NCBI GenBank assembly: GCA_000004985.1
Contig: GG738875.1
Origin: Naegleria gruberi
Lineage: Eukaryota
Strand: one strand, 5' to 3'
Length of the DNA: 64,000 nucleotides
Positions 24,190-45,865 of the stretch are shown piece after piece. Under the pieces are notes generated by a model that worked only from the letters and a program-made list of their open reading frames with translations, was not told where the DNA came from and did not search any database. The first letter of the stretch is position 1, and each line of letters begins with the position of its first letter. The translations under genes and the position numbers were made by a program.

Positions 24190-24828
24190 CTAGACCTTCA
24201 TTTTGGGTAAAATGCTTAGCTCCTTTTCCAATTGTTTCTCATATGATGCTTGGAAACGAGTGTAATTATCCAACATGTTGTGTTCACAAGCTGTTTGAAT
24301 TCTATCAAATATTTCAGGAGTGATGGCAAAGAGGAAACTCATATCTTGTGGATTTGTGGAAGTTTGCTTTGGAGAAATATTCAATTTTGGAGAAGGTGAA
24401 ACATTTCCATTTTTAGAAGCAAAATTAATGGTACTGTCTTTTAGGGATTTGAAGATTTTCTCAATTTCTGGAATTCCAAAATCCTTTCTTGAAATGTTCA
24501 ATTCAAGAGGAGCTCCAATTCGAATATAAGTATTACAAATATTGTAAAATAATTCTCTTCTTTGTTTTTCTGATTTGATTGTTTTGAATTTCTCAATGGC
24601 ATTCCACATCATGACATCTTCACATGCAAAACATTTTTCTGAGAATTTCAGAAAGAGATTATTCCACTTTTCATTCAGTAAAATCTTTCGAATGCTACTT
24701 TCAGAAGGTTTCGAATGTTGAAGTTTAGAATCAACTGATGGAGTGCTTTCTGTATGTTGTTTCTTGTCAGATTTGAATCTTTGAAGGAAGAATACAGGAT
24801 ACGTGAATGAAATTAATGTATCCCACAT
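24190..24828 (-). CDS. RGS (regulator of G-protein signalling) domain protein, copy A.
   Basis: RGS-box pattern: LLNEKWNNLFLKFSEKCFACEDVMMWNAIEKFK...ELFYNICNTYIRIGAPLELNIS......MLDNYTRFQASYEKQL. ATG at 24826-24828. Lies immediately downstream, on the same strand, of a 7TM gene. Confidence 0.65.
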   Translation of the reverse strand: MWDTLISFTYPVFFLQRFKSDKKQHTESTPSVDSKLQHSKPSESSIRKILLNEKWNNLFLKFSEKCFACEDVMMWNAIEKFKTIKSEKQRRELFYNICNTYIRIGAPLELNISRKDFGIPEIEKIFKSLKDSTINFASKNGNVSPSPKLNISPKQTSTNPQDMSFLFAITPEIFDRIQTACEHNMLDNYTRFQASYEKQLEKELSILPKMKV

Positions 24829-24924
24829 ATTTCCAATTAAAATTGTAATCGTCCATGGGAAATAATAATCAATACTTTACAAAATATTACAATTATTATT
24901 CTAATCTCAGATATATATTACTTA

Positions 24925-26289
24925 CTAGGTTGTAAAAATAGTGAATAAAGAAGGCACAGCATACAATACAATAAAAAAAACCCATCCAAATATCACAACA
25001 ATAACCTCAATCTTAATATGCCAAACATCTCTCTTGGTAAAGAATGAAAACAATAACAGTAAAACTCCAATAAATCCATAAAAGGCAAAATAACTAATGA
25101 AAATATTTTGATTGTAAGATCCAGTTCCACATCCAGATGGTGAAAATAAATAACTATCAATTGTAAAGCTATTTCTCGAATTGCTTGATGCACCTCCAGT
25201 ATTTTGAAAATTGAAATAGTCAATTGTGCCAATAATTAGGAAAATTAAAATGTGTAGAGCTAGTAATAATCCATAATAAATGAAAATAAATTTGGAGCTC
25301 ACTAGAAATCTCATAATGGAAATTAATTTGCCTCTTTCGAATGATTCTAATAGAGTTTCTTTTCTGAAAATCATTTCGTCTTCAAGTGGTTTGTCAGTTG
25401 TGATATCTTTTGGTTCGATTGTGAATTGTGACATAATGCTTGAAGTTCTGCCAACTGTCAATGCTGACAATGAGGTTCTATTGGTAGCTTTCAATAATCC
25501 AGATGAGCTAGAAACACTGCTTGTTTCTGAATGAACTTTCAATTCTTTCATTTCAGTGTCAGTTGTCAATGGGTTGTTGGCAGATGGAGGAGTATTATTC
25601 AATGTTTCCAATATATCCAAACTCACATTTGCATCCATAAGTGGTTTCATATTTTCTGATGATGTTGTTGCATGCAAGTCATATTGTCTCTTTCCAATCC
25701 TCACTTTCAATTCGTTCAGTTTGGTCAATACCAACAATCTAATACATCTCAATATGACAGTATTCGAAAGTGCAGGCACAGCCAAATAATAGATTAGTGA
25801 AAATATGAAACATGGATAAATCTTTCGTCCAATTAACACTCTAGTCATTAATACGAAAGTATAGGTCCATCCAATAATTGCTCCCATGACCATCAATGCT
25901 GGATTCCTGGCAACCTGCAAATAATTCACAACTTGTTTGTGTTCCTTTTGGAGAATATGCAACATTCTCAATTTATAAACTAAACCTCCAACCGAAACTA
26001 ATAACAAACATGTGTGAATAAAGAGGATAATTGCTGAAATAACAACAGCTGATGTGGTATCATCACACAATCCCTTCTCACTCTTGTTTCCTTGTGAAAG
26101 GAGGAGTGGATGACAAACTGTGCTGTCATTATACATGTTGGTAGAGTTGACTATTAGTGAGGTGTTGATATTGAGCGTTGTGTGGATGTTGAAAATGGGC
26201 ACATGCATGTTGGTGACATGGAACGTCAACGTGGATAAAAATCCATCAAACATGCCATTTGTCTCTTCGGAATGAGCATTCAAATCCAT
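24925..26289 (-). CDS. Multi-pass (6-7 TM) GPCR-like membrane protein, copy A. Cys-containing N-terminal ectodomain and a long Ser/Thr-rich loop between TM3 and TM4.
   Basis: Hydrophobic segments VISAIILFIHTCLLLVSVGGLVY, ALMVMGAIIGWTYTFVLMT, FIFSLIYYLAVPALSNTVIL, FIFIYYGLLLALHILIFLIIG, IFISYFAFYGFIGVLLLLF and VIVVIFGWVFFIVLYAV. The first ATG is 26287-26289; the ORF-track start is a TTG. Confidence 0.6.
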   Translation of the reverse strand: MDLNAHSEETNGMFDGFLSTLTFHVTNMHVPIFNIHTTLNINTSLIVNSTNMYNDSTVCHPLLLSQGNKSEKGLCDDTTSAVVISAIILFIHTCLLLVSVGGLVYKLRMLHILQKEHKQVVNYLQVARNPALMVMGAIIGWTYTFVLMTRVLIGRKIYPCFIFSLIYYLAVPALSNTVILRCIRLLVLTKLNELKVRIGKRQYDLHATTSSENMKPLMDANVSLDILETLNNTPPSANNPLTTDTEMKELKVHSETSSVSSSSGLLKATNRTSLSALTVGRTSSIMSQFTIEPKDITTDKPLEDEMIFRKETLLESFERGKLISIMRFLVSSKFIFIYYGLLLALHILIFLIIGTIDYFNFQNTGGASSNSRNSFTIDSYLFSPSGCGTGSYNQNIFISYFAFYGFIGVLLLLFSFFTKRDVWHIKIEVIVVIFGWVFFIVLYAVPSLFTIFTT

Positions 26290-26535
26290 TTTCAAGTTGG
26301 CCAATTGAAAAAGGTGATATGAGTTGATTAGTTTTTTTTTCTTCTTTAAAATTGTTATGGTTCACCATTGAGCGACTTTGTCCTCTCAATGAAAGTGAAC
26401 CTTGATTGTGAAATCTTGATAAAATTTATTTGGGAATCTGATTTCTAATTTGTGCTATTCCATTAGTGGCCCTGAAAAACTATTCGAAAGAAGACTATTA
26501 GTTGTAGATTGGTAGAGTTGAATGTTGGTTGTTTA

Positions 26536-27165
26536 TTACACTTTAAGCTTGGCTACGATATCCAATTCCTTTTCCAATTGTTTCTCATACGATGCTTGGA
26601 AACGAGTATAATTATCCAACATGTTGTGTTCACAAGCAGTTTGAATCTTGTTGAATATTTCAGATGTTATTGAGAATAACAAATTATTTGGGTCAACCTT
26701 TGCATTGTTATTCGAAACCTTTGGAGAAACATTTCCATTCTTTGAGGCAAAATTAATGTTACTCTCCTTTAATGCATGATAAATGTCCATAATTTCTGGA
26801 ATTCCAAAATCCTTTCTTGAAATGTTTAATTCAAGAGGAGCTCCAATTCGAATATATGTATTACAAATATTGTAAAATAATTCTCTTCTTTGTTTTTCTG
26901 ATTTGATTGCTTTGAATTTCTCAATGGCATTCCACATCATGACATCTTCACATGAGAAGGATTTCTCTGCGAATTTCAGAAAGAGATTATTCCACTTTTC
27001 ATTCAGTAAAATCTTTCGAATACTACTCTCACCAGAAATATTTACACTGGAAACTGAAGGATTGGTCGAGAGAGCTGGTTCAATGGAATTACCCTCTGAC
27101 TTGTTTGATTTGAATCTTTGAAGCACAAAAACTGGATAACTGAATGAAATGAGTGTATCCCACAT
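26536..27165 (-). CDS. RGS domain protein, copy B, paralog of 24190..24828.
   Basis: MWDTLISFSYPVFVLQRFKS... and the RGS box are almost identical to copy A. ATG at 27163-27165. Confidence 0.65.
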   Translation of the reverse strand: MWDTLISFSYPVFVLQRFKSNKSEGNSIEPALSTNPSVSSVNISGESSIRKILLNEKWNNLFLKFAEKSFSCEDVMMWNAIEKFKAIKSEKQRRELFYNICNTYIRIGAPLELNISRKDFGIPEIMDIYHALKESNINFASKNGNVSPKVSNNNAKVDPNNLLFSITSEIFNKIQTACEHNMLDNYTRFQASYEKQLEKELDIVAKLKV

Positions 27166-27249
27166 GCATCCAATTAAAATTGTAATTGTCCATGGGAAAT
27201 AATAATCAACACTTTAAAATGTTAAGTTATCAAAACTTAATGATACCTA

Positions 27250-28536
27250 CTATGTGGTAATAATTGTAAATAAGGAAGGAATACTAAAAGCAAGAACAAT
27301 AGCAGCCCAAAACAAGTTAATAATCACAACTTCAATCTTAATATTCCACACGTCTCTCTTTGCAAAAAAGGCAATTATGGATAGTAAAATTCCAATTAAT
27401 CCATAAAAGCAAAAGTAGCTAATGAATATATATTGATTGTAAGCTCCAACTCCACATCCAGATGGTGAAAATAAATAACTATCAATTGTAAAACTATTTC
27501 TCTTTTGATTTGTTTTTACAGAAGTATCATTTTGATAATTGAAATAGTCAATAATGGCAATGATAAAGTAAATGCTCAAGTGAAATCCAATGACCACAAC
27601 ATAGCTCAATAAAACAAATTTGGAGCTCACGAGAAATCTCATGATGGAAAGTAATTTTCCTCTTTCGAATGATTCTAATAGAGTTTCCTTTCTGAAAATC
27701 ATTTCCTCTTCCACATTATTTTCATCATCATCTGCATTACTATCCTTAGGTTCAATTACAAATTGTGAGAGAATACCTGAAGTTCTGCCAACTGTTAATG
27801 CTGACAAATTTGTACTGTTCTGATTTCCAGCTAAACTACTATTCGAAATGGATAAACTATCAAGAGACGTAACTGTTTCCAATTCCTTTTCCACTTGATT
27901 TTGTGAAATATTCGTGTTTTCCTCAATCATGGATTTCATATTGTCCGATGATGTTGTTGCATGCAAATAATATTGTCTCCTTCCAATCCTCACTTTCAAT
28001 TCGTTCAGTTTCGTCAATATCAACAATCGAATACATCTCATAATAATAGTATTCGAAAGTGCAGGAATAGCAATAAAATAGATTAGTGAAAATATGAAAC
28101 ATGGATAAACCTTTCGTCCAATTAACACTCTCCCCATCAACATGAACGTATAAGACCATCCAATCAGTGCTCCAATTACCATTAATAATGGATTCCTTGC
28201 AACCTGCAAATAATTCACAACTTGTTTTTGTTTCTTCTTTAAAACATGCAACTTTCTCAATTTATAAACTAAACCTCCAACCGAAACCAAAACGAGCATT
28301 GTGTGAAGAAACAAAACAATGGCAGAAATTACTGTGGAAGAGGTCATGTCATCACACAATCCCTTCTCACTCCTATTTCCAAGAGCTAATAGGAGAGGAT
28401 GACACACAGCACTATCATTGTATTTGTTATAGGTATTGTTGTTGTTAATGGTGATGGAATCGTTGGAAAGAGTTTCGAATATGTTGTAGGAAAGAGATGT
28501 AATGACATCAGCATGTGGTTGGTGGTGAAAGGACAT
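27250..28536 (-). CDS. Multi-pass GPCR-like membrane protein, copy B, paralog of 24925..26289.
   Basis: Same TM architecture and the shared blocks VCHPLLLALGNRSEKGLCDD...VVNYLQVARNP...IMRFLVSSKF. ATG at 28534-28536. Confidence 0.6.
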   Translation of the reverse strand: MSFHHQPHADVITSLSYNIFETLSNDSITINNNNTYNKYNDSAVCHPLLLALGNRSEKGLCDDMTSSTVISAIVLFLHTMLVLVSVGGLVYKLRKLHVLKKKQKQVVNYLQVARNPLLMVIGALIGWSYTFMLMGRVLIGRKVYPCFIFSLIYFIAIPALSNTIIMRCIRLLILTKLNELKVRIGRRQYYLHATTSSDNMKSMIEENTNISQNQVEKELETVTSLDSLSISNSSLAGNQNSTNLSALTVGRTSGILSQFVIEPKDSNADDDENNVEEEMIFRKETLLESFERGKLLSIMRFLVSSKFVLLSYVVVIGFHLSIYFIIAIIDYFNYQNDTSVKTNQKRNSFTIDSYLFSPSGCGVGAYNQYIFISYFCFYGLIGILLSIIAFFAKRDVWNIKIEVVIINLFWAAIVLAFSIPSLFTIITT

Positions 28537-29719: not shown

Positions 29720-32026
29720 ATGCGCAAGCTTACCCACACTGTATTAAAATCACATTCTTCTGCAGTGATTAATGCTCGCAAAGTGCCCTCTATCATCAAA
29801 TCAAATAATATTTTGAATGTTTCATGGCATCCATGGAAAGCTTTTCAAACAACAAGTCCTTGGCAAAATCAATCCTTCACACGGGACGGTTCTTCGGTTC
29901 TTGGGGGAAAGCCACCAACAGAGACAACAGACAACAAATCCATCATCACCCTAGCATTGAAAGACTTTGACACCTGGTCGGTTGCACAAGTATCTGCTGT
30001 GTTGATGTTGAGCAAACAGGAAGGGGGTATCGGTTTGTCCGAGGAGAAGATCAAACCACTCTATGATTCTGCTTTTGATGGACTGGCTCTGAGCTATATT
30101 GCAACAGGTATTAAGGGAAATAGATTAGAAGGAAAGAGTGAAATCAGTTGTATCGAACATACCATCAAGACAATTACAAACAGTAAGGACTTTGCTTCAG
30201 TGCCGAAAACTACTTGCACAACTGTTGTTGAATGGGTTGCTACCAAGTTGACACCTAAACCATATAGGTTGTGGAACACTCAAGAGTTAGATGATTTTCT
30301 TAGCAAACCAAAAGCCGAGGGAGGTGCTGGATTGAGTGATGAGTCCGTGGTCTACCTCCATCGTGCCAAAATCGACAACCTAACACTTGCCCGAATTGTT
30401 ACTGTCATTAAGGAAGAAAGAATGAAAGGCCTTACAGAAGAAGAATGTATTGAGCTTGCCACAAAGATAATGACAAGCGATAAGGACTTTGCTTTAGTAC
30501 CAGAATCTACTTGTAAAGCTGTCACTGAGTGGGTTGCTGCCAAGTTGGCTCGAAAGGCTGATGAGAGAGGTACTTTCATTAACATACCCTCCGATTTGCT
30601 TGGTCATTGGAAGCGCCAGTTGGGAGGAGAAATATCTGAAGGTTTGAGAAAGGAAAGAACAAATGCAAAATATGACTACCTCCGTAATTTACATGATCCA
30701 ACAAACATGAAAAAACTGGAAAATTTCATTGGAACATATATTGATCTTCCTGTCTTTGGAAAGGAAGATAGTGATTTATCTCCAAAAGACTTTGATCCAA
30801 ATGATAAATTTCTTTTAACTCAGCAACGATTTGATATACTGAAAAAGGTTGTGAATGGAAGCACTGGATTGGTTTTATCAGGTCCTCATGGAATTTCAAA
30901 GTCATACACACTTTATCTAATAGCTGCCTATGCCTTTGTAAATTCCATTCCAGCACTCTATGTTCCAAAGTGTCGTTCCTGGCTCAGCACTTTCAACATA
31001 GATAAGGAAGTTGGTGCCAATAACTACTTGCGTAGATTGTTCTTTTCGCTGAATAGTGACATTCTTTCTACGACCCAAATTATGGAATTACAGAAATCAA
31101 GAAATGTGGTCGAACATTTGAGCACCCATATTGGAGATAAGGGATCTATGTTCTATTTGTTTGATGAACACAATGAATTATTCAGACCTGACTATTACAA
31201 TAAGATTCCTGCTTCTTTTGCTTATTTTCAAGATTTTATCAGATGGACAGGAGTTACATCAGGGAATTACACAGTTACTATCTATTGTGGAAGTGCTCAT
31301 AGCTCCTTCGAAGACCATTTACCAGGAGGAGAAAGAGGAAGGGTAGTTAGAATCACTCCTCCAACAATGACAGAATTTGAACAACTTGTTTCAGCTGTGG
31401 GTTTGAATCCAAAGGATAAAAGAATAGCTCATGTAACAGGAAGAATTCCAAGAGAGTTGAAATACTTGGCTGACCATTTGAAAGGTAAAAAGGGTACTGA
31501 TGAAGATTTCAACCATTTTATCACAGTAAGGCAGGGAGAATATGCTTCTAGATTGCGCTCATTAGTTAACAAAATGGACAAAGAGGAGAATGATGAGTTT
31601 TTAAAAACACTTGAAGATCTTTTTACTCTGGGTCTTTTCGATGGAAGACCTTGCACTGTTTCAGGAAATGTTTACGATATGGGTTTACTATACAAGGATT
31701 CTGATCAAAACCTTTATATTATTAATGATCCAGCAAATAGATGCTTATTCCATCACTACTGCAGCAAAGTTGACATGCCACACATACCCAAGAATATTTC
31801 TGTTTCACAGAAAGGAGCACTGTTTGAAAAATACTTGTTAAGACGAGAGTATGGACTTTGTAAACATTTGGATGGAAAATTCTATGTAACAAACAAGTTG
31901 AGTACAACCACAACATCCACCTTATCATATGAAGTTAACGAACATGCAAGTTTGGATCTAAAGGATTTACATTCCCTCAATCGAAGAAACTATTTGCGGG
32001 GAACAGGAGTACCACTACCAGAGTAG
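29720..32026 (+). CDS. Tandem SAM-like domains followed by a P-loop NTPase (AAA+/STAND-like) domain, 768 aa.
   Basis: Two ~100-aa repeats carry SAM-like signatures: WSVAQVSAVLMLSKQEGGIGLSEEKIKPLYDSAFDGLALSYI and WNTQELDDFLSKPKAEGGAGLSDESVVYLHRAKIDNLTLARI. Walker A is LVLSGPHGISKSYTL and Walker B is SMFYLFDEHNE. ATG at 29720. Confidence 0.65.
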   Translation: MRKLTHTVLKSHSSAVINARKVPSIIKSNNILNVSWHPWKAFQTTSPWQNQSFTRDGSSVLGGKPPTETTDNKSIITLALKDFDTWSVAQVSAVLMLSKQEGGIGLSEEKIKPLYDSAFDGLALSYIATGIKGNRLEGKSEISCIEHTIKTITNSKDFASVPKTTCTTVVEWVATKLTPKPYRLWNTQELDDFLSKPKAEGGAGLSDESVVYLHRAKIDNLTLARIVTVIKEERMKGLTEEECIELATKIMTSDKDFALVPESTCKAVTEWVAAKLARKADERGTFINIPSDLLGHWKRQLGGEISEGLRKERTNAKYDYLRNLHDPTNMKKLENFIGTYIDLPVFGKEDSDLSPKDFDPNDKFLLTQQRFDILKKVVNGSTGLVLSGPHGISKSYTLYLIAAYAFVNSIPALYVPKCRSWLSTFNIDKEVGANNYLRRLFFSLNSDILSTTQIMELQKSRNVVEHLSTHIGDKGSMFYLFDEHNELFRPDYYNKIPASFAYFQDFIRWTGVTSGNYTVTIYCGSAHSSFEDHLPGGERGRVVRITPPTMTEFEQLVSAVGLNPKDKRIAHVTGRIPRELKYLADHLKGKKGTDEDFNHFITVRQGEYASRLRSLVNKMDKEENDEFLKTLEDLFTLGLFDGRPCTVSGNVYDMGLLYKDSDQNLYIINDPANRCLFHHYCSKVDMPHIPKNISVSQKGALFEKYLLRREYGLCKHLDGKFYVTNKLSTTTTSTLSYEVNEHASLDLKDLHSLNRRNYLRGTGVPLPE

Positions 32027-32152
32027 TTTCTATCAGCCAGGCGAAAACTAGTGTACCGACAAGAAAAAAAAAATGCGACAACAACTGAAGATGAATCTAC
32101 ACAATATCAATCATTACATCAACACCACAAAACGCAAACAAATACGATAATA

Positions 32153-33013
32153 ATGGATTTCATTGACTATATGGATTTTGAAGAAGAATCCAATGAACAA
32201 CAAAACAGTGCTGAAGAAATGTTACTTCTAATGAGACAGCAGCGATATGGAAGAACAGATATCTCTTTGATGGATATTTTACACAATAACACACAAACAA
32301 TATCCACCAACTTGAACCAATACAAAGAAAGAATAATCAACAATGACCAACAACAATATGAAGACAACGATGACATTGATGATTTGGATGAAGATGGTGA
32401 TGTGTTAATGGCAGAGGCTAATACTTATCAACAATGGAGAATCATTGAAGAGAAGTATTGGGATAAATATATAGATATTTGTAAGGATGGATTTAAATCA
32501 GAATCCTATGACAAACAAAACTCTGTGGAAAAAGCAATCCTTTTTAGTGCCATCCAACATTTGGGAAGAGTTGCAAGACATAAGGTTTTCAATGCCATGA
32601 AACCTGGAAAAGCAAGAATTAGAAAAGATATATTCATTGGAGCAATGGAACCAAGATTGTTTGATTATTTTATGAAAGAAGCTGGTGGTGAGAGATCTTT
32701 CAGGAGATACACAAAAACACAAGAGGATGGATCAAAATTGCTGCAAGGTTGTGTTGTATATTCATTTGAAGGTGAGAAATATCCATATTTCGGAATCAGT
32801 GATAATTGGCGAATTAAGTATCATTATGAGGTAGAAGATGATGTTCAATTAATTGTTAGAAAAAGAGTATCTACAATGACTAGCTGTAAAGTTAAATGCA
32901 ATGTTGTTTCGTGGGAGGTTAGAATGGATTTAACTTGGAAACGAGAGGTAATGGATGTTATTAACTATGATCAAGAAAATGAACAGTATGGAGAGCCAGA
33001 ACTCTGTGATTAA
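32153..33013 (+). CDS. Hypothetical protein with an acidic, Q-rich N-terminus.
   Basis: The ORF is open from a GTG at 32051; the first ATG is 32153. No recognisable domain. Confidence 0.45.
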   Translation: MDFIDYMDFEEESNEQQNSAEEMLLLMRQQRYGRTDISLMDILHNNTQTISTNLNQYKERIINNDQQQYEDNDDIDDLDEDGDVLMAEANTYQQWRIIEEKYWDKYIDICKDGFKSESYDKQNSVEKAILFSAIQHLGRVARHKVFNAMKPGKARIRKDIFIGAMEPRLFDYFMKEAGGERSFRRYTKTQEDGSKLLQGCVVYSFEGEKYPYFGISDNWRIKYHYEVEDDVQLIVRKRVSTMTSCKVKCNVVSWEVRMDLTWKREVMDVINYDQENEQYGEPELCD

Positions 33014-33790: not shown

Positions 33791-33840
33791 NNNNNNNNNN
33801 NNNNNNNNNNNNNNNNNNNNNNNNNNNNNNNNNNNNNNNN
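33791..33840. other. Assembly gap, 50 N, at the 5' boundary of the duplicated NTPase segment.
   Basis: Run of N. The flanking left sequence is not homologous to copy 1; the right flank is. Confidence 0.95.
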
Positions 33841-34420
33841 ATCTATGTTCTATTTGTTTGATGAACATAATGAATTATTCAGACCTGACTATTACAATAA
33901 GATTCCTGCTTCTTTTGCTTATTTTCAAGATTTTATCAGATGGACAGGAGTTACATCAGGGAATTATACAGTTACTATCTATTGTGGAAGTGCTCATAGC
34001 TCCTTCGAAGACCATTTACCAGGAGGAGAAAGAGGAAGGGTAGTTAGAATCACTCCTCCAACAACGACAGAGTTTGAACAACTTGTTTCAGCTGTGGGTT
34101 TGAACCCAAAGGATAAAAGAATAGCCCATGTAACAGGAAGAATTCCAAGAGAGTTGAAATACTTGACTGACCATTTGAAAGGTAAAAAGGGTACTGATGA
34201 AGATATCAATCATTTTATCACAGTAAGACAGGGAGAATATGCTTCTAGATTGCGCTCATTAGTTAACAAAATGGACAAAGAGGAGAATGATGAGTTTTTA
34301 AAAACACTTGAAGATCTTTTTACTCTGGGTCTTTTCGATGGAAGGCCTTGCACTGTTTCAGGAAATGTATACGATATGGGTTTACTATTCAAGGATTCTG
34401 ATCAAAACCTTTATATTATT
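33841..34420 (+). pseudogene. Second partial copy of the SAM-NTPase gene, from the Walker B region onward. Its 5' part is lost in the assembly gap and its 3' part is interrupted by an insertion.
   Basis: About 95% nucleotide identity to 31141..31725 (SMFYLFDEHNELFRPDYYNKIPASFAYFQDF...). Runs into a TGA right after the insertion junction. Confidence 0.55.
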
Positions 34421-35264
34421 GAGTGAATACTAAGAAACGGAGTGACGGAACACAGAGTCTCACGGAATCCGCCTCAAGTAAGAAACTGTCCAACGGGGCA
34501 GTCTGAAGTAAGAAACGGAATTAAGAATGGATATTAAGCTCAATAACACAGTAACATTCTAAAATTGTTCTAATATGAATTGAATAAAATAGGCTATTCC
34601 ATTTGTTGTTGGATTTAATCTACTTGTTCTTAACGATTTCATTCCCAAGATCAAATTTCACATTTTTATTTCATGAAACTTTCCCCACTCGATGTGTGCA
34701 TTCATATATGTTACCAGGTCAAGTTTCATTGTTTGATTTTGTAACTTCAACTAACAAATTAGCAAATCTTTGAATAGATTTGTTTCAAGTTTATTCGCAA
34801 ATAATAAAACATGTCAATTACAGTTAGTAGCATTGTCATTATTTATATATATCCATAATTATTCAAAAAATTCAGGTTTCGTCATCTGATCCAAGAGTTA
34901 TTTAGAATTAAGGGAAAAAAAGAGTGTTAAGGAATGCCTCTTATATAAAAAATTAAAAAAAAAGTGAAATTTATTATTAATTTGATATTTACTAATACAT
35001 GGGAAAGTTGCATGATTTGGAAATTTAATTTGGGCGAGTAAATAACCAATTCTTAGTCAACCCAACCAGAACTTGACCAACACAAAAGAAAAGGAATATA
35101 TTATAATAAATATGATGTTTATTATCAATTTAAATAGTACTACTAGAAGAAACTTTTTGATTTGGTGAAGTACATGATGATCCAGTGAGTTGATACAAAT
35201 AAACGGTGAGACGGGCAACGGGATGAACGGGATTCAGGCCGTTTCTTATTCTAAACGGGAGATT
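34421..35264. mobile_element. Candidate non-autonomous TIR-type (MITE-like) insertion of 844 bp, disrupting NTPase copy 2.
   Basis: Absent from the intact paralog at 31731. Subterminal TAAGAAACGG motifs occur three times at the left end (34431, 34479, 34509) and once inverted at the right end (35240..35252). AACGGG motifs recur near the right end. AT-rich interior with no ORF. The right junction carries a 19-bp inverted copy (ctggatcattaataatata, 35265..35283) of the target sequence tatattattaatgatccag. Confidence 0.45.
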
Positions 35265-35283
35265 CTGGATCATTAATAATATA

Positions 35284-35848
35284 CTACTGCACCAAAGTTG
35301 ACATGCCACACATACCCAAGAATATTTCTGTTTCACAGAAAGGAGAGCACTGTTTGAAAAATTCTTGTTAAGACGAGAGTATGGACTGGAAATTCTATGT
35401 AACGAACAAGTTGAGTACAACCACAACATCCACCTTATCATATGAAGTTAACGAACATGCAAGTTTGGATCTAAAGGATTTACATTCCCTCAATCGAAGA
35501 AACTATTTGCGTGGAACAGGAGTACTATTCATTCCAGAATCTGAGACTTTCCCAAGCTTTGATTATGCTATTGTTATATACAAAGAGAAATCAGTAGAAA
35601 TCTTTCTGAAACAAAGCACCATTTCTACTGTTGAATCTCATTATTGTCATAGTAATGGCAAAACAGATGTGGATAATTTACTGGAACGTCTTTATGTTTT
35701 AAATAGAGAAGGAAAGGTAATGAAAAGGAAACAAAACGTTCCAGAACAATATCATTTCTCATTGCTTGAATTGATACTTCATGGAATTGTTGGAAGTGAA
35801 GAAACCAAAGTTGAATTGATACTTTTTAGAAATAGACAAGAAATGAAG
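35284..35848 (+). pseudogene. Continuation of NTPase copy 2 after the insertion, with a C-terminal extension not present in copy 1. Its end is lost in the gap at 35849.
   Basis: 35284..35530 matches 31756..32010 of copy 1 (KVDMPHIPKNISVSQKG...LNRRNYLRGTG), with a small deletion. It then continues as VLFIPESETFPSFDYAIVIYKEK..., whereas copy 1 ends at a stop. Confidence 0.45.
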
Positions 35849-35898
35849 NNNNNNNNNNNNNNNNNNNNNNNNNNNNNNNNNNNNNNNNNNNNNNNNNN
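35849..35898. other. Assembly gap, 50 N, between the NTPase copy-2 tail and 7TM copy 3.
   Basis: Run of N. Confidence 0.95.
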
Positions 35899-35908
35899 AA
35901 ATCTCTTT

Positions 35909-36703
35909 TCAATATTTCCCATTTGGTTTTGTTTCTGAAAAGAATTTCCATATCCAATTGTTCATCTTGTAAATTCCTGTAGAGCTGTCTTGTGTGGTTG
36001 ATAATGAAAATGAGGACAAACTCTTTTGTTTTTCAATATTGTCAGAGAGTCCACTTGATGATGATGTGTTTTCTCCAGTATTAGATTTAGCTGTTGATGA
36101 GCTAGTTGGATTTAGTTCAGTTTCGGTTGTTTCAGTAATTTGTTTAGGATTATCTGATGATATCGAATGACGCAGTTCATATTGTCTATTACCAATCCTC
36201 ACTTTCAATTCATATAATTTTGTCAATATCAACAATCGAATACATCTCAATATGACAGTATTCGAAAGTGCAGGCACAGCCAAATAATAGATTAGTGAAA
36301 ATATGAAACATGGATAAATCTTTCGTCCAATTAACACTCTAGTCATTAATACGAAAGTATAGGTCCATCCAATAATTGCTCCCATGACCATCAATGCTGG
36401 ATTCCTGGCAACCTGCAAATAATTCACAACTTGTTTGTGTTCCTTTTGGAGAATATGCAACTTTCTCAATTTATAAACTAAACCTCCAACCGAAACTAAT
36501 AACAAGCTTGTATGAAGGAACAAAACGATAGCTGAAATAACAATGGCCGATGTGGTGTCATCACACAATCCCTTCTCACTCTTGTTTCCTTGTGAAAGGA
36601 GGAGTGGATGACAGATCGTTGAATCATTTGTACTGGGATTCGAATAGTTAGAGACCAGCAACGCATCAAATATTGCCGTAGGAAAGATCACTTTGGCAGA
36701 CAT
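35909..36703 (-). CDS. Third copy of the GPCR-like multi-pass membrane protein, N-terminal 264 aa only. The downstream part falls in the assembly gap.
   Basis: ICHPLLLSQGNKSEKGLCDDTTSAIVISAIVLFLHTSLLLVSVGGLVYKLRKLHILQKEHKQVVNYLQVARNPALMVMGAIIGW... is near-identical to copy A. ATG at 36701-36703. Confidence 0.5.
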   Translation of the reverse strand: MSAKVIFPTAIFDALLVSNYSNPSTNDSTICHPLLLSQGNKSEKGLCDDTTSAIVISAIVLFLHTSLLLVSVGGLVYKLRKLHILQKEHKQVVNYLQVARNPALMVMGAIIGWTYTFVLMTRVLIGRKIYPCFIFSLIYYLAVPALSNTVILRCIRLLILTKLYELKVRIGNRQYELRHSISSDNPKQITETTETELNPTSSSTAKSNTGENTSSSSGLSDNIEKQKSLSSFSLSTTQDSSTGIYKMNNWIWKFFSETKPNGKY

Positions 36704-40993: not shown

Positions 40994-43900
40994 ATGCCGC
41001 CACTCCTTTCCTTCCATTCTTCTTCCATTATTATCATCCTCATTCTCTTCATCAACAGCATTTTCTTCATTCACTCCTCATTGGCTTCATCTAAAACAAC
41101 AATTATAAAAACAACAGCAAATAATTACAATATTAAAATAGTGGCAGGAAGTTATGGCAATACCATTGATTCCTATCATTTTCCGATCATATCCGAGAGT
41201 CCAATTTATGTGCAATCATCCTCATCATCATCATCTGTGGTGGTGATGGAGAAGGAGGAGGATGATGGTGATGAAATAATATATTTATCAGATACACAGT
41301 TTTGTGTGGTGAGGAAAATTCAGAAAAGTTTGAGTGTTGTGGTGGCAGGAAATGGAATTTGTGCAGTTCCTGGAGAGACAAGTGGATTGGCTGTTGAATT
41401 TTCATTGACATCACCAGGTGGTGTTTATTTGGATGAATCTACTAATATATTATATATTTTGGATAATGGATTGAGTAATTCAGGAGGTTTTGTTAGAACT
41501 GTTGATATGTCAAGTGGAATGTTAAATACTTTGCAATTGACCTATGAACCTGCAGTGCTTATGTTAAAAAGTCCAACAATGATAACAAAGAATGGTGGAA
41601 TATTTTACATTGCTGATACTGGCAATAATGTTATTAGAAGTTTGACATTTACTGGACAAAATACTGCTCATTGTAAAGTAATTATTGGTGCAGTCAACCC
41701 TGACGTATCAATGAGTTGTGTTAATGTTGACCCATTGAGTTGTCAACTTTCTTCTCCAACAAGTATTACATTTTCATCTGATGGAATGATCATTACTGAC
41801 CAGCAAAACAGTAGATTTCTCGCTTTACAAAATGGAATTGTGTATCCATATTCTTTGGTAATACCAACTCCATTGCAAATAATGAGTTTGGGAAATGCTG
41901 AATATATAGTTTCGAATGGAGAAATATTGTATTCCCTCACACAAACCACAAAAAATGGTGCAGATTCAACTATTCTCCTGAAGGATAAAAGTTGGCCAAT
42001 TGGATATTTTGGAATTGATTCAGCACAAACTAATCTTTATTTCATGAGTCAATTGCCAAATTTAGCAGTATCACAAATTGTTAAATTCAACATTCAATCT
42101 CTTGGTCAGCCAACAGTCATTGGTGGTGCATATCCTTATACTTTGAGTCCAAACGTGCCTGCTTCTAGTTACTATTTTAATGGATTAACTCAATTAGAAT
42201 ATGTCAGTGATAGTGAAATTTATTTCGCATCCTATAATACAGATATTATCAAATTTGATATGACAGCAGGATTGGCCACAAGAATTGCTGGTAATATGAA
42301 TCAACCATCAGCGTTATCAAAAATTTCTAAAGGCCTATTAGTTGCAGATACTGTTAATAGGTTAATTAAACTTATTGATGGTGGTGGATCTGTCTCTACT
42401 GTAGCAGGTACAAATTCAAATGGAATAGGTTGTCCTGAAGGAGTTCAGGCTACTAGTTGTGAATTGAATTTACCCAGTGGTGTGGTAGGTACACCCTCAA
42501 TACTATCAAATCAATACATGTTTGTAATTGCTGACAGTAATGCTAATACTCTAAGGATGGTAGCTAATGATTTCACTGTTACAACATTAGCCAACTCTGT
42601 ATCAAATGTGAGATATCCAACGGGTTTATATTACACTGCTAATGGAGATTTATATTTTGCTAATACTGGAACTTCTCAAATAATGAAATTAGCTCATGAT
42701 AATACCATCGCAGTAATTGCAGGAACAGGAGAAAAAGGAAACAAAGGCGATGGTGGATTAGCTGTGAATGCTGCATTGAATTACCCAACACAGGTTACTG
42801 TCACTTCAAATGGAATATTGTATATAGCCGACACTGGCAACAATGCTATCAGAAAAATTGATTCCAATGGTATTATATCTACTGTTACACATAATGCTAT
42901 TCAAGGAATTAATGGTGTTGCCACGACTTCTGAGGGTGAACTACTATACGCTGATAGTTATACTGTAAGAATGATTCAATCGGTAGCATGTATTAATCCA
43001 CAAGGCCAAGTTTGTTCAAATCATGGGAAATGTGTGGATGGGCAATGTCTATGTGAAAGTGGATGGAGAGGTGATTCAGTGTGTGGAACTTTTTCATGTG
43101 ATATTCCAAAACCACCAAATGCACATAATTGTATTGGACCTAACCAGTATTCATGTATGAATGGTTGGTTTGGAGATTTGTGTAATTTACCAATTTGTTT
43201 TGGAATTCAATATAATAATTCAGCTGTTTGTAGCTCACATGGAAAATGTGTATCTAACAACACATGCAATTGTGAAAGTGGATGGAATGGAAATACAAAA
43301 TGTGGGACCTTTTCGTGTGACATTCCAAAACCACCAAACGCCTTTGAATGTATTGGACCTAATCAATATTCATGCATGACTGGTTGGTTTGGAAATTCTT
43401 GTGAACTACCAATTTGTTTTGGAATTCAATTTAATAATTCAGCTGTCTGTAGCTCACATGGACAATGTGTATCTAACAACACATGTATTTGTGAAAGTGG
43501 ATGGAGAGGTGATTCAGTGTGTGGAACTTTTTCATGTGATATTCCAAAACCACCAAACGGTCAGCAGTGTATTGGACCTAACCAGTATTCATGTATGAAT
43601 GGATGGTTTGGAGATTTGTGTAATTTACCAATGTGCTTTGGGATTCAATATAACAGCTCTTCTGTTTGTAGCTCACATGGAAAATGCATATCCAACAATA
43701 CATGCAATTGTGAAAGTGGATGGAATGGAAATAAGCAATGTGGGGCCTTTTCGTGTGACATTCCAAAACCACCAAACGCCTTTGAATGTATTGGACCTAA
43801 TCAATATTCATGTATGGATGGATGGTTTGGAGATTTGTGTACTTTTCCAATTTGTTTTGGAATTCAATTTAATAATTCAGCTGTTTGTAGCTCACATGGA

Positions 43901-45865
43901 AAATGTATTTCCAGTAATACATGCAAGTGTGAAAGTGGATGGAATGGAAATAACCAATGTGGAGCTTTTTCATGTGACATTCCTTCTCAACATGGAATTT
44001 GTATTGGTCCAAACACTTTCAAATGTCAAGATGGATGGACAGGACTCGAATGTGAAATTCCAATTTGTTTTGGAAAATTAGGAAATGATCCTAGAGTGTG
44101 TAACTCACAGGGAAGATGTATTTCTAATAATACATGTCAATGCAATAGTGGATGGAAAGGAAATTCTGAATGTTCTCAATTCTCATGTGATGGAATGGCT
44201 GAATGTTCTCAAAATGGTAAATGTATTTCTAATAATACATGCCAATGCAGATCAGGATGGTCTGGACCAAAATGTGATATTGTTGCATGTGATGGAGTTC
44301 AAAACTGTCATGCTAATGGTTTGTGTATTTCAAACAATACTTGCAAATGTAATAGTGGATGGGAAGGTCAATCATGTTTGGAGTATAATTGCAATGGTAC
44401 CAACAATTGTCAACCGAACGGTCTATGCATTTCGAATAATACTTGTAAATGTAATGATGAATTTGGTGGAAATGATTGTTCAATACCTTACTGTTTTGGA
44501 AAATTGGGTAATAGTGGATGTGAAGATAATGGAATTTGCTCATTTTTCAACAAGTGCTCATGTTTTCCTCTTTACTTTGGAGATCAATGTTCATGGTTAG
44601 ATTGTGATCCAACTTCAAAAGATACATCCCAAAATTCAACTAAAAGATGCTCCTCAAATGGTTATTGTGTTATGACCAGAAATAATTTGAATCAAAATTC
44701 TACCATTTGTGAATGTAATAAGGGATATAATGGTCAATTTTGCCAAAATAGTGATTCTACGAATGGATCGGGAACAATAGCTGCTATAGTTGTTACAATA
44801 CTTGTTATAATTTTGGTATTTATATTAATGATAAGTGTTGGTACTTTTATCTATGTTAAAAAGTTCAGAAACAAATATCAAGATCCAGAGAAAATGAAAA
44901 TGTTAAACAATACTACACCATCAACTTATTCAGAATCAAGTTGGTCAAATTCTCTCTCCATTCAGAATGACACTAGTTTAATAAGTAATACTCACAGTAG
45001 TATTTCATCAAAGACACATTTCAAAATTAGGGATAAAGAATACATAATGGAAAGAAAATTAGGAAGTGGTGCTAATGGTTCTGTATTTGTATTTAAGGAA
45101 ATTAATACCAATCAGCATTTTGCCGTAAAGCAAATAGAAGTAACAAATCCATTTGGTACGGAATTTAAAGAAGTCGTGAATATGTTTGAATTGACTGAGG
45201 ATTCTAATGCTCATATTGTACCAATTATTGGCTGTACAATGGTCGAGAATGGAGGATTCATTTGTATTCTCATGCCACTCTACAAGTGTGATTTGAGAGA
45301 TTGGATATATACAAATCAAAAATCAATCACAATTGATCTAATTATTGAAATTGTAAAACAAATTGCTTTAGGATTACAATATCTCCATTCCAAGAATATG
45401 ATACACAGAGATTTGAAACAAACAAACATATTCATTGCCAAAGCCAATGAAAAAGATGTATCAAAATGTGATGACTTTTTATTGTGCATTGGAGATTGGG
45501 GATCTTCCAGATCTAATTCACGATCTGGTCTGACTGTCTATGAAGGAACAATTCAATTCAGTTCTCCAGAAGCAATCATTAAGGGAGAAGTTGAACAAGC
45601 AAGTGATATTTGGAGTTTGGGATGTGTTTTCTATCAATTATTATCTGGAGATTATGAATCAATTTTGTTTAGGATTAAACAAGGCAATGATCTGGCAGAT
45701 AATGAAGTACTCTTACCAAAAATTCTTAATTTTGGTAAAAAGATGAATTACAGAGATGGAAAGGTTCAATTTTGTTTTGAATTATTGTGTGAAATGATTA
45801 GATATGATGCCAAGATGAGATTAACTGCCCATCAAATTTTAGCCAAGATTGAAAACTTTAAATAA
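40994..45865 (+). CDS. Receptor-like protein kinase, 1623 aa: signal peptide, NHL-type repeats, about 12 tenascin-type EGF-like repeats, a single TM segment and a cytoplasmic protein kinase domain.
   Basis: Hydrophobic N-terminus SIIIILILFINSIFFIHSSLASS. NHL-like blades FYIADTGNNVIRSL and LYIADTGNNAIRKI. Repeated CGTFSCDIPKPPNA.ECIGPNQYSCMNGWFGDLCNLPICFG...CSSHGKC.SNNTC.CESGWNG units. TM segment IAAIVVTILVIILVFILMISVGTFIYV. Kinase motifs GSGANGSV, FAVK, HRDLKQTNIFI, a GDWGSS DFG variant and SPE. Confidence 0.75.
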   Translation: MPPLLSFHSSSIIIILILFINSIFFIHSSLASSKTTIIKTTANNYNIKIVAGSYGNTIDSYHFPIISESPIYVQSSSSSSSVVVMEKEEDDGDEIIYLSDTQFCVVRKIQKSLSVVVAGNGICAVPGETSGLAVEFSLTSPGGVYLDESTNILYILDNGLSNSGGFVRTVDMSSGMLNTLQLTYEPAVLMLKSPTMITKNGGIFYIADTGNNVIRSLTFTGQNTAHCKVIIGAVNPDVSMSCVNVDPLSCQLSSPTSITFSSDGMIITDQQNSRFLALQNGIVYPYSLVIPTPLQIMSLGNAEYIVSNGEILYSLTQTTKNGADSTILLKDKSWPIGYFGIDSAQTNLYFMSQLPNLAVSQIVKFNIQSLGQPTVIGGAYPYTLSPNVPASSYYFNGLTQLEYVSDSEIYFASYNTDIIKFDMTAGLATRIAGNMNQPSALSKISKGLLVADTVNRLIKLIDGGGSVSTVAGTNSNGIGCPEGVQATSCELNLPSGVVGTPSILSNQYMFVIADSNANTLRMVANDFTVTTLANSVSNVRYPTGLYYTANGDLYFANTGTSQIMKLAHDNTIAVIAGTGEKGNKGDGGLAVNAALNYPTQVTVTSNGILYIADTGNNAIRKIDSNGIISTVTHNAIQGINGVATTSEGELLYADSYTVRMIQSVACINPQGQVCSNHGKCVDGQCLCESGWRGDSVCGTFSCDIPKPPNAHNCIGPNQYSCMNGWFGDLCNLPICFGIQYNNSAVCSSHGKCVSNNTCNCESGWNGNTKCGTFSCDIPKPPNAFECIGPNQYSCMTGWFGNSCELPICFGIQFNNSAVCSSHGQCVSNNTCICESGWRGDSVCGTFSCDIPKPPNGQQCIGPNQYSCMNGWFGDLCNLPMCFGIQYNSSSVCSSHGKCISNNTCNCESGWNGNKQCGAFSCDIPKPPNAFECIGPNQYSCMDGWFGDLCTFPICFGIQFNNSAVCSSHGKCISSNTCKCESGWNGNNQCGAFSCDIPSQHGICIGPNTFKCQDGWTGLECEIPICFGKLGNDPRVCNSQGRCISNNTCQCNSGWKGNSECSQFSCDGMAECSQNGKCISNNTCQCRSGWSGPKCDIVACDGVQNCHANGLCISNNTCKCNSGWEGQSCLEYNCNGTNNCQPNGLCISNNTCKCNDEFGGNDCSIPYCFGKLGNSGCEDNGICSFFNKCSCFPLYFGDQCSWLDCDPTSKDTSQNSTKRCSSNGYCVMTRNNLNQNSTICECNKGYNGQFCQNSDSTNGSGTIAAIVVTILVIILVFILMISVGTFIYVKKFRNKYQDPEKMKMLNNTTPSTYSESSWSNSLSIQNDTSLISNTHSSISSKTHFKIRDKEYIMERKLGSGANGSVFVFKEINTNQHFAVKQIEVTNPFGTEFKEVVNMFELTEDSNAHIVPIIGCTMVENGGFICILMPLYKCDLRDWIYTNQKSITIDLIIEIVKQIALGLQYLHSKNMIHRDLKQTNIFIAKANEKDVSKCDDFLLCIGDWGSSRSNSRSGLTVYEGTIQFSSPEAIIKGEVEQASDIWSLGCVFYQLLSGDYESILFRIKQGNDLADNEVLLPKILNFGKKMNYRDGKVQFCFELLCEMIRYDAKMRLTAHQILAKIENFK
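43010..44170 (+). repeat. In-frame tandem DNA repeat of about 219 bp (roughly 5 units), encoding the EGF-pair modules of the receptor kinase.
   Basis: Unit boundaries at about 43081, 43303, 43522, 43741 and 43960. The first four units are more than 90% identical; the last has diverged. These repeats produce the spurious alternate-frame ORFs at 43161..44081. Confidence 0.6.

What the first reader, a model, noticed from the sequence alone, without database searches (positions are those of the whole stretch)
33841..35848. NTPase copy 2 is disrupted by an 844-bp TIR-like (MITE-like) insertion with an inverted target-site copy
Against the intact paralog, copy 2 matches up to ...ctttatattatt at 34420. 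It resumes at ctactgca at 35284, having lost about 28 bp of gene sequence. The intervening 844 bp is AT-rich and non-coding. It carries TAAGAAACGG subterminal repeats, three direct near the left end and one inverted near the right end, plus AACGGG repeats. The right junction holds a 19-bp inverted copy of the pre-insertion target (tatattattaatgatccag becomes ctggatcattaataatata), a footprint expected from hairpin-forming transposition or excision (hAT/Transib-like) or a foldback rearrangement. Copy 2 also has a different C-terminal extension from copy 1.
Basis: seen in the sequence. Interest (0 to 1): 0.6.

Follow-up and report, generated by a model that had tools for sequence, protein, structure and literature searches.

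The report
Rearranged insertion in a Naegleria pseudogene
A decaying extra copy of a Naegleria gruberi ATPase gene is broken by an 844-base non-coding, transposon-like insert that lies in a small flipped block of DNA; this is an ordinary gene-decay event, notable only for its unusual junctions.

Summary
The window is a Naegleria gruberi draft scaffold. Copy 2 (33841-35848, a 2,008-bp contig between two 50-N gaps) matches copy 1 up to 34420 and resumes at 35283/4. In between lie 844 bp of unique, non-coding DNA (34421-35264) and an exact 19-nt inverted copy of gene sequence (35265-35283). Net gene loss is 21 nt, not about 28.

Homologues in three other heterolobosean species are uninterrupted at this site, so the insert is derived. 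Copy 2's "different" C-terminus is the ancestral one; copy 1 is the truncated copy.

The two ends of the insert are the only ACGG-dense spots in 64 kb. They carry mirrored TAAGAAACGG motifs 10 and 16 nt from the junctions. This suggests a discrete transposon-like unit.

There is no direct target duplication, no terminal inverted repeat, no hairpin-forming potential, no transposase in the window, and no second copy in anything I could search. The N. gruberi genome itself was not searchable.

The junctions fit an 863-bp inverted block bounded by a 9-bp inverted duplication, plus a 21-nt deletion. That points to aberrant transposition or end-joining, not a canonical MITE insertion or a hairpin footprint. 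Copy 2 carries at least four more lesions. Interest is low.

The parts
33841..34420 (+). Copy 2, left gene flank. It covers the second half of the AAA+/STAND-like NTPase module, ending ...NLYII.
   Evidence: 97.8% identical to copy 1 31144-31723, with 13 nt and 4 aa differences. It starts at an N-gap. The reading frame hits TGA at 34424-34426, just inside the insert.
34412..34420 (+). TATATTATT, the left copy of the 9-bp inverted duplication that bounds the flipped block.
   Evidence: Its reverse complement AATAATATA lies at 35275-35283.
34421..35264 (.). 844-bp foreign, non-coding insert. The ends are 45-48% GC and the middle is 20-30% GC.
   Evidence: No other copy in the window. No ORF longer than 56 aa. 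No Rfam or tRNA match. No protein match to its six-frame translation. No match in E. coli genomes or plasmids.
34421..34520 (+). Left subterminal repeat region. It holds 5 ACGG motifs, TAAGAAACGG at 34431 and 34509, and the variant TAAGAAACTG at 34479.
   Evidence: CpG observed 6 against 5.6 expected, while the window-wide ratio is 0.40.
35187..35264 (+). Right subterminal repeat region. It holds 5 ACGG (+), 1 CCGT, 3 AACGGGA and an inverted TAAGAAACGG at 35239-35248. It begins with GAGTTGATACAAATAAACGGTGAGACGG, a direct repeat (21/28) of the insert's left terminus.
   Evidence: For the direct repeat, 2 of 1000 shuffles reach the score.
35265..35283 (-). Exact inverted copy of gene nucleotides 31715-31733. 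It consists of 10 nt (AATGATCCAG) relocated from just right of the left breakpoint plus the 9-nt duplicate of TATATTATT.
   Evidence: 19/19 identity.
35284..35848 (+). Copy 2, right gene flank with the ancestral C-terminal domain. It carries further lesions: +2 bp at 35343-35344, a 17-bp deletion (equivalent to copy-1 31858-31874), and in-frame deletions of about 144 bp and 12 bp relative to P0014/P0002.
   Evidence: It ends at an N-gap.
31715..31755 (+). The intact target site in copy 1: TATATTATT | AATGATCCAG | CAAATAGATGCTTATTCCATC | A. It encodes ..YIINDPANRCLFHH..
   Evidence: The stretch is conserved in all full-length homologues.
35161..35185 (+). Possible extra inverted-repeat arm inside the insert (TTTGGTGAAGTACATGATGATCCAG), which pairs with 35265-35296. 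This is only suggestive.
   Evidence: A 141-nt fold gives z = -3.1, with 1 of 200 shuffles as good. The alignment score is reached by 50 of 1000 shuffles. A 9-mer match alone is within chance.

Best explanation
Copy 2 is a real, decaying paralogue of a Naegleria-specific AAA+/STAND-like NTPase gene. It was knocked out by a complex insertion-inversion-deletion, not by a textbook transposon insertion.

The inserted 844 bp is most likely a non-autonomous cut-and-paste DNA transposon. It is a discrete non-coding unit whose two ends carry arrays of short (A)AACGG-type motifs and a mirrored TAAGAAACGG, the kind of subterminal sites transposases bind.

The junctions show that the element and the adjacent 10 nt of gene (AATGATCCAG) lie in an 863-bp block (34421-35283) that is inverted relative to the gene. 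The block is bounded by a 9-bp inverted duplication (TATATTATT / AATAATATA), and 21 nt of gene are missing next to it.

Inferred mechanism: the element was first joined to the gene after ...CCAG (copy-1 position 31733). Then a break at its other end and a 9-nt staggered break 10 nt upstream of it were rejoined in flipped orientation. This could have happened by an aberrant one-ended strand transfer of the element's free end into its own flank, or by fill-in and non-homologous end joining. Nibbling of the released flank would account for the missing 21 nt, plus any original target duplication.

Shown: the sequence architecture, its derived status, and the non-random ends. Inferred: mobility of the insert, and the order and enzymology of the steps.

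Consequence: translation stops at TGA two codons into the insert, which uncouples the NTPase module from the C-terminal domain.
For: Organism and paralogy: the 768-aa ORF is 100% identical to a Naegleria gruberi predicted protein.

The insert is derived: all full-length homologues in N. lovaniensis, N. fowleri and Willaertia read straight through the conserved (L/F)(F/Y)I(I/V)N(D/E)PAKRCLF..YC stretch.

Copy 2 is a separate locus, not a misassembled copy 1. It differs at 2.2% of sites, with only 4 of 13 changes non-synonymous. It also keeps the C-terminal domain that copy 1 lacks.

The junction architecture was verified base by base.

The ends are non-random:
- 11 of the window's 67 ACGG/CCGT, and 5 of its 10 AAACGG/CCGTTT, lie within about 100 bp of the insert's ends.
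- No other 100-bp stretch in the window has 4 or more.
- TAAGAAACGG occurs 3 times against 0.02 expected.
- The subterminal inverted repeat is reached by 5 of 1000 shuffles and the terminal direct repeat by 2 of 1000.
- CpG is not depleted at the ends, against an observed/expected ratio of 0.40 for the window.

It is not an E. coli IS or vector artefact.

Inverted duplications bounding an inverted segment are the published signature of staggered breaks followed by fill-in and end joining (PMC1885836, read).

Subterminal AAACGG hexamer arrays are the transposase-binding sites of maize Ac/Ds (PMC3260210). I use this as an analogy for how such ends work, not as evidence of membership.
Against: No second copy of the insert could be found, so its mobility is unproven. 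The N. gruberi genome was not searchable, and hits in other collections were chance matches.

The insert's outermost bases are not inverted repeats, and the mirrored motif sits 10 and 16 nt inside the junctions. Transposase-made joints should fall at exact element termini. The ends may therefore have been made by end joining of a fragment slightly larger than the element.

Most ACGG motifs have the same orientation at both ends.

The scheme needs two events, or one complex event.

The whole structure sits in a 2-kb contig between gaps, with no read-level support available.
Confidence: 0.5

Rival explanations
1. One-step double-strand-break repair with captured or templated filler DNA that is not a transposon. 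A break in copy 2 was repaired by microhomology-mediated or polymerase-theta-like end joining, or by replicative template switching. This copied 844 bp from an unrelated locus, then 19 nt from the broken gene's own left end in inverted orientation, and lost 21 nt.
For: There is no target-site duplication, and the termini are not inverted repeats. A short perfectly templated inverted patch taken from sequence next to the break, together with a small deletion, is the known scar of alternative end joining (PMC4912351, PMC5068794 and PMC5728401, found). There are possible further gene-derived snippets inside the insert next to the right junction. The only microhomology at the last junction is 1 nt (A at 35283).
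Against: Random filler should not begin and end in the only two ACGG-dense, CpG-rich, mutually related segments of a 64-kb region. 844 nt is very long for templated end-joining inserts. No donor sequence exists within the 64-kb window. The extra snippets are within or near chance. Whether Naegleria has the required polymerase was not examined.
Confidence: 0.2
2. One reading: a canonical MITE or hAT/Transib-type element inserted by normal cut-and-paste, with the 19-nt inverted copy being a hairpin (P-nucleotide) footprint.
For: There are subterminal repeats including the AAACGG hexamer, a subterminal inverted repeat, an AT-rich non-coding body and an AT-rich target.
Against: There is no 8-bp (hAT) or 5-bp (Transib) direct duplication and no terminal inverted repeat. 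The element is still present, whereas footprints mark excision. The inverted copy is separated from its template by the whole element and includes 10 nt that were removed from the template side. There is no excess secondary structure. A 19-nt P-insertion would be far longer than usual (own knowledge).
Confidence: 0.08
3. Assembly or cloning artefact: a chimeric or rearranged Sanger clone, or a mis-joined contig in a repeat-rich spot of a draft scaffold.
For: Copy 2 is a 2,008-bp contig with 50-N gaps on both sides. The family has at least 3 near-identical members that would confuse an assembler. The contig shows unusually many indels for its 2.2% substitution level.
Against: All three junctions lie more than 560 bp from the contig ends. 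The insert has host-like composition and no E. coli, plasmid or IS similarity. A simple chimera gives one junction, not an insert plus an exact 19-nt inverted patch plus a 21-nt deletion. The flanks have their own substitutions and the ancestral C-terminus, so they are not copy 1 re-used.
Confidence: 0.12

Closest known systems
Non-autonomous hAT elements of the Ac/Ds type (maize Ds1, Ds2, Ds-like)
   Same: A short non-coding body. Multiple copies of a short subterminal motif within about 100 bp of each end, here literally including the AAACGG hexamer that Ac transposase binds (PMC3260210). Insertion into an AT-rich site in a gene.
   Different: Ac/Ds are defined by 11-bp terminal inverted repeats and an 8-bp direct target duplication (PMC3260210); neither is present here. 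No hAT transposase was seen in the window, and copy number is unknown. The host is a heterolobosean amoeba, and the shared hexamer is probably coincidental.
Inversions formed by staggered breaks, with inverted duplications at the breakpoints (Drosophila; Ranz et al. 2007, PMC1885836)
   Same: An inverted segment bounded by an inverted duplication of ancestrally single-copy sequence. It is explained by 5' overhang fill-in and end joining.
   Different: The scale is 863 bp with a 9-bp duplication, against kilobase-to-megabase inversions with gene-sized duplications. Only one breakpoint here shows a duplication; the other shows a 21-nt deletion and coincides with the end of an inserted element.
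Aberrant or one-ended transposition of plant hAT elements (Tam3, Ac) that inverts or duplicates flanking DNA while the element stays in place (own knowledge of the Antirrhinum nivea/pallida and maize p1 literature; not read here)
   Same: The element is retained. The adjacent flank is inverted or duplicated in inverted orientation. There is a deletion on the other side. One rearrangement breakpoint lies exactly at an element end.
   Different: Those cases involve proven active elements with known ends and 8-bp duplications. Here neither activity, ends nor family are established, and the stagger would be 9 nt.
Templated insertions of alternative (polymerase-theta-mediated) end joining, also called SD-MMEJ (PMC4912351, PMC5068794, PMC5728401)
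   Same: A short, exact, inverted copy of sequence next to the break is inserted at the repair junction together with a small deletion.
   Different: Such inserts are usually a few to tens of nucleotides. They do not explain an 844-bp unit with structured, mutually related ends.

Membership tests
hAT superfamily, Ac/Ds-like non-autonomous element | 8-bp direct target-site duplication flanking the element | tested here: not met
   Left flank ...TATATTATT, right flank CTGGATCATT... or, beyond the inverted patch, CTACTGCA.... There is no direct repeat of any length at the junctions. Criterion taken from PMC3260210.
hAT superfamily, Ac/Ds-like non-autonomous element | Short terminal inverted repeats at the very ends | tested here: not met
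   The termini are GAGTGAATAC... and, as the reverse complement of the right end, AATCTCCCGT.... They are not complementary. The only significant inverted repeat (GAA-TAAGAAACGG, 13/14) lies 10 and 16 nt inside the junctions.
hAT superfamily, Ac/Ds-like non-autonomous element | Arrays of short subterminal transposase-binding motifs in the terminal ~200 bp | tested here: met
   There are 5 ACGG in the left 100 bp and 6 ACGG/CCGT in the right 65 bp. 5 of the window's 10 AAACGG/CCGTTT lie here. Actual binding was not tested.
hAT superfamily, Ac/Ds-like non-autonomous element | An autonomous partner encoding a hAT transposase with matching ends | not testable with these tools
   No transposase domain was found in any ORF of at least 180 aa in the window.
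MITE (generic) | Multiple dispersed copies in the genome | not testable with these tools
   It is unique in the 64-kb window. There were only chance hits in metagenome, viral and prokaryotic collections and nothing in an N. lovaniensis locus.
MITE (generic) | Small, AT-rich, non-coding, with TIRs and a TSD, often able to fold into a long hairpin | tested here: inconclusive
   Met: 844 bp, 31% GC, no ORF longer than 56 aa. Not met: the TIR and TSD criteria, and the fold z-score of -0.42.
Mutator-like element | 9-11-bp direct target duplication and long (about 100-bp or more) terminal inverted repeats | tested here: not met
   The only 9-bp duplication is inverted, not direct. There are no long TIRs. 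The 9-nt stagger is compatible but not diagnostic.
Transib / RAG-like | 5-bp TSD and CACNGTG-type termini | tested here: not met
   Neither is present at the junctions.
Staggered-break inversion | An inverted segment bounded by an inverted duplication of ancestrally single-copy sequence | tested here: met
   TATATTATT at 34412-34420 and AATAATATA at 35275-35283 bound a block that contains 10 nt of gene in inverted orientation. The sequence is single-copy and direct in copy 1. Model from PMC1885836.
P-loop NTPase, AAA+/STAND-like (identity of the disrupted gene) | Walker A motif and an AAA+/STAND-type fold | tested here: met
   The GPHG(I/V)SKS motif is conserved. There is a weak Pfam DAP3 P-loop hit, E = 1e-4, below the gathering score. 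The AF2 model has a core pLDDT of about 80. It matches mS29/DAP3, the archaeal AAA+ ATPase 2fna and the Dark apoptosome, with Foldseek probability about 1.0 and E of 1e-4 to 1e-3. NTP hydrolysis was not tested.

The most novel reading that the evidence does not exclude
The 844-bp unit defines an undescribed Naegleria DNA-transposon family whose normal integration leaves an inverted rather than a direct duplication of the target. One route would be both joins being made to the same target strand, or to a hairpinned flank. On that reading, the inverted 19-nt copy would be a family signature and not a one-off accident.
Probability: 0.04. Interest if true: 0.6.

Novelty: new member of a known kind. 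Interest (0 to 1): 0.2.

Why it matters
On its own it matters little. It is one more lesion in a pseudogene fragment of a draft genome.

It has modest value in two ways.

First, most repeats in N. gruberi are still unclassified (PMC12344493). A structurally well-delimited candidate element with a clean ancestral empty site (copy 1) is a useful seed for defining a family.

Second, the junctions are a clear small-scale example of an inversion with an inverted target duplication next to a mobile-looking element. That would bear on how transposon ends or end joining reshape genes in a deep-branching eukaryote, if a genome-wide search confirms the element.

Tried and rejected
- Other copies in the window: blastn with word size 7 found only the self-hit and the two gene-derived pieces.
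- Other copies elsewhere. A consensus of the two GAGT..ATAC..AAACGG...GACGG ends gave one metagenome hit (L001, 45% GC), unrelated beyond the pattern. A motif pattern gave one viral-contig hit (63% GC), also chance. A 32-mer in prokaryotic genomes gave none.
- N. gruberi DNA could not be fetched. Exact-protein look-ups of three N. gruberi proteins are not on record.
- An N. lovaniensis homologue locus has no similar element or ACGG cluster pair.
- The six-frame translation of the insert against 5.8 billion proteins gave no hit.
- Rfam, tRNA and tandem-repeat scans of the region found nothing real.
- E. coli IS or cloning-vector artefact: no match.
- Spliceosomal intron or introner: the GT...AG pairs I checked by eye restore neither the frame nor the lost codons, and the frame meets TGA at once.
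- Solo LTR, TRIM, Helitron and CACTA readings: the termini and flanks do not fit. These were judged by eye and recalled family criteria, with no family-specific scan. The two end-repeats are only about 75% alike, too diverged for LTRs of an insertion younger than a 2% duplication.
- Simple hairpin-opening models give A-t-b-b'-t' palindromes, not the observed order (reasoned).
- An extended palindrome around the last 80 nt of the insert (35161-35296) looked attractive, but it is only borderline against shuffles. I do not build on it.
- A literature search for Naegleria MITE or hAT elements, and for the motif itself, found nothing relevant.
Full report
**Source and setting.** The window is 33% GC and dense in long intron-poor ORFs. 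It carries four 50-N gaps, at 2601, 18144, 33791-33840 and 35849-35898. The 768-aa ORF at 29720-32026 ('copy 1') is 100% identical to a 'predicted protein [Naegleria gruberi]' on a 396-kb scaffold, so this is the N. gruberi draft assembly. 'Copy 2' (33841-35848) is exactly one 2,008-bp contig lying between two gaps.

**Checking the observation.**
- Pairwise alignment and blastn show copy 1 31144-31723 = copy 2 33841-34420, with 13 differences in 580 nt. Homology resumes at 31755/6 = 35283/4.
- Between them lie 844 bp (34421-35264) with no other match in the window.
- Next come 19 nt (35265-35283, CTGGATCATTAATAATATA) that are the exact reverse complement of copy-1 31715-31733.
- Of the 31 copy-1 nucleotides absent in direct orientation (31724-31754), 10 are present inverted. 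The net loss is therefore 21 nt, not about 28.
- The insert is 30.9% GC and has no ORF above 56 aa. It has no Rfam, tRNA or tandem-repeat feature, and its six-frame translation matches no protein.
- TAAGAAACGG occurs three times in 64 kb, all in the insert: two direct on the left and one inverted on the right, against 0.02 expected.

**Which state is ancestral, and what the gene is.** Homologues exist only in Naegleria lovaniensis, N. fowleri, Willaertia magna and one environmental contig. They are 790-1036 aa long. In an alignment of 12 of them, the insertion site falls inside a strongly conserved stretch...LFIINDPAKRCLFHHYC.... The uninterrupted copy-1 sequence is therefore ancestral and the insert is derived.

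The C-terminal 'extension' of copy 2 (GVLFIPESETFPSFDYAIV...) is the family's conserved C-terminal domain. Copy 1 loses homology after 32011 and stops 5 codons later.

The 'NTPase' label holds:
- a conserved GPHG(I/V)SKS Walker A motif;
- a sub-threshold Pfam DAP3 P-loop hit;
- an AlphaFold model, core pLDDT about 80, that matches mS29/DAP3, an archaeal AAA+ ATPase (2fna) and the Dark apoptosome.

Copy 2 is a genuine separate locus. Its flanks carry their own substitutions (2.2%), and only 4 of the 13 on the left are non-synonymous. This suggests it was under constraint for most of the time since duplication (inference).

Copy 2 is now a pseudogene with several other lesions: +2 bp at 35343-4, -17 bp, and in-frame losses of about 144 and 12 bp relative to P0014 and P0002. 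No N. gruberi protein model covers it.

**Anatomy of the insert.**
- The two ends stand out sharply. ACGG/CCGT occurs 67 times in the window, about 0.1 per 100 bp. The only two places with 4 or more per 100 bp are 34437-34515 (5) and 35203-35255 (6), which are the two ends of the insert.
- Five of the window's ten AAACGG/CCGTTT hexamers lie there.
- CpG is not depleted at the ends, whereas the window as a whole has an observed/expected ratio of 0.40.
- An inverted repeat, GAA-TAAGAAACGG (13/14), links the ends; 5 of 1000 shuffles reach its score. It lies 10 and 16 nt inside the junctions.
- The very first 28 nt (GAGTGAATACTAAGAAACGGAGTGACGG) recur as a direct repeat (21/28; 2 of 1000 shuffles) at 35187.
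- Most ACGG motifs point the same way at both ends.
- The outermost bases are not inverted repeats, and the element as a whole folds no better than shuffles, z = -0.42.

The inserted DNA is thus a structured unit whose natural boundaries roughly coincide with the junctions. That argues for a mobile element rather than random filler. It lacks the terminal inverted repeats of a canonical TIR element.

**Anatomy of the junctions.** Write the ancestral sequence as A-t-b-c-C, where:
- t = TATATTATT;
- b = AATGATCCAG;
- c = the 21 lost nucleotides;
- C = (A)CTACTGCA....

Copy 2 then reads A-t-[insert]-b'-t'-C, where b' and t' are the reverse complements of b and t. There is no direct duplication anywhere.

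The simplest description is an 863-bp block (insert + b) that is inverted. It is bounded by a 9-bp inverted duplication of t, with c deleted. Read in the opposite orientation, the block is gene...t-b joined directly to one end of the insert. This is an ordinary element-flank junction after ...CCAG.

An inverted segment bounded by an inverted duplication is what staggered breaks produce after fill-in and end joining (PMC1885836). Here the stagger would be 9 nt. The same product follows if the free 3' end of an element, cut at one end only, transfers into the opposite strand of its own flank 10 nt beyond its other end, and the released flank is trimmed and rejoined. The second breakpoint coincides exactly with the end of the insert, which favours involvement of the element's end. 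That is inference.

**Why not a hairpin footprint.** P-nucleotide footprints of hAT- or Transib-type excision are short. They abut the flank that templated them, and they are seen after the element has left. Here the element is present and the inverted copy lies across it from its template. The copy includes 10 nt that have been removed from the template side. Simple hairpin-opening schemes predict A-t-b-b'-t', not the observed order.

**Alternatives.**
- One-step end joining or template switching that copied 844 nt from elsewhere and then 19 nt of the gene's own left end would also give no TSD. It matches known alt-EJ scars (PMC4912351, PMC5068794, PMC5728401). It does not explain why the filler starts and ends in the only two ACGG-rich, mutually related segments, and 844 nt is very long for such inserts.
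- A possible longer palindrome around the last 80 nt of the insert (35161-35185 against 35265-35296) would favour this route. It is only borderline: z = -3.1 for folding, but 50 of 1000 shuffles reach the alignment score, and 9-mer matches are within chance.
- An artefact cannot be excluded, because the contig is short and gap-bounded. Against it, the junctions are more than 560 bp from the contig ends, the insert has host-like composition with no E. coli or plasmid match, and a chimera would not create an exact inverted patch plus a deletion.

**Limits.** The decisive test, copy number and boundaries of the 844-bp unit in the whole N. gruberi genome, could not be run. N. gruberi is absent from the contig look-up. 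The collections that can be scanned by DNA pattern gave only chance hits. No transposase is encoded in the window.

**Comparison with known kinds.** The insert works like, or at least looks like, a Ds-type non-autonomous element in having subterminal hexamer arrays, even sharing the AAACGG hexamer of Ac (PMC3260210). It fails both defining structural tests for hAT membership, the 8-bp TSD and the terminal inverted repeats. It also fails those for Mutator and Transib. The rearrangement belongs to the known class of inversions with inverted breakpoint duplications and of transposon-associated local rearrangements.

**Verdict.** This is a real-looking but ordinary pseudogenising event with an unusual, well-resolved junction structure. 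The MITE interpretation is partly supported, and the hairpin-footprint mechanism is not supported. Interest is low (0.2). It would rise only if genome-wide copies showed that the inverted target copy is a regular property of the family.

Noticed in passing
window 29720-32026 (break at 32011/32012) and 32051-33013: Copy 1 is itself truncated. Homology to the family ends after ...GGAACAGGAGTAC (32011), and the ORF stops 5 codons later, so it lacks the ~190-aa conserved C-terminal domain. It is followed at once by an unrelated 320-aa ORF with no Pfam or NCBIfam match. The new sequence starts CACTACCAGAGTAG, and no inverted partner for it exists in the window.
   Followed up: partly
protein P0014 (N. 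gruberi, 10-kb scaffold; not in the window): This is a third N. gruberi paralogue. It has 98% identical N-terminal helical repeats and the conserved C-terminal domain, but the NTPase module is replaced by about 440 aa of unrelated Cys/His-rich sequence with no Pfam, NCBIfam or PDB match. The search with copy 1 as query returned no N. gruberi protein carrying both the NTPase module and the C-terminal domain, so no intact annotated member was found there. N. fowleri and N. lovaniensis keep several full-length copies.
   Followed up: partly
window 35284-35848: Copy 2 carries further lesions besides the insert: +2 bp (GGAG to GGAGAG, 35343-4), a 17-bp deletion 43 nt downstream that restores the frame (+2 - 17 = -15), and in-frame deletions of about 144 bp and 12 bp in the C-terminal domain. 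That is a high indel-to-substitution ratio for 2.2% divergence.
   Followed up: partly
window 24190-26304, 26536-28536, 35909-36703 (all minus strand): Three paralogous multi-pass membrane-protein genes with no Pfam match, 77-92% identical at the DNA level. Two are in tandem upstream of copy 1 and one lies just beyond the gap after copy 2. The region is therefore a patchwork of recent segmental duplications.
   Followed up: no
window 30149-30250 vs 30446-30547: An internal duplication inside the NTPase gene's N-terminal region (76% identical at the DNA level). It corresponds to two helical repeats (W..Q.....L......GG.GLS....) ahead of the NTPase module. The domain type was not identified.
   Followed up: no
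whole window: Strong CpG depletion: 716 CpG observed against 1,782 expected, a ratio of 0.40. N. gruberi is reported to have only sparse cytosine methylation, concentrated in repeats (PMC12344493).
   Followed up: no
window 43052-44173: An internal tandem array of roughly 210-220-bp units, 77-82% identical, inside the 1,623-aa EGF/NHL receptor-kinase gene (40994-45865). These are the teneurin-type EGF repeats.
   Followed up: no
L003 15128-16390 (N. lovaniensis, next to homologue P0003): A DDE_1 / HTH_Tnp_Tc5 (pogo-like) transposase gene lies 4 kb downstream of the N. lovaniensis family member. No relation to the N. gruberi insert was found.
   Followed up: no
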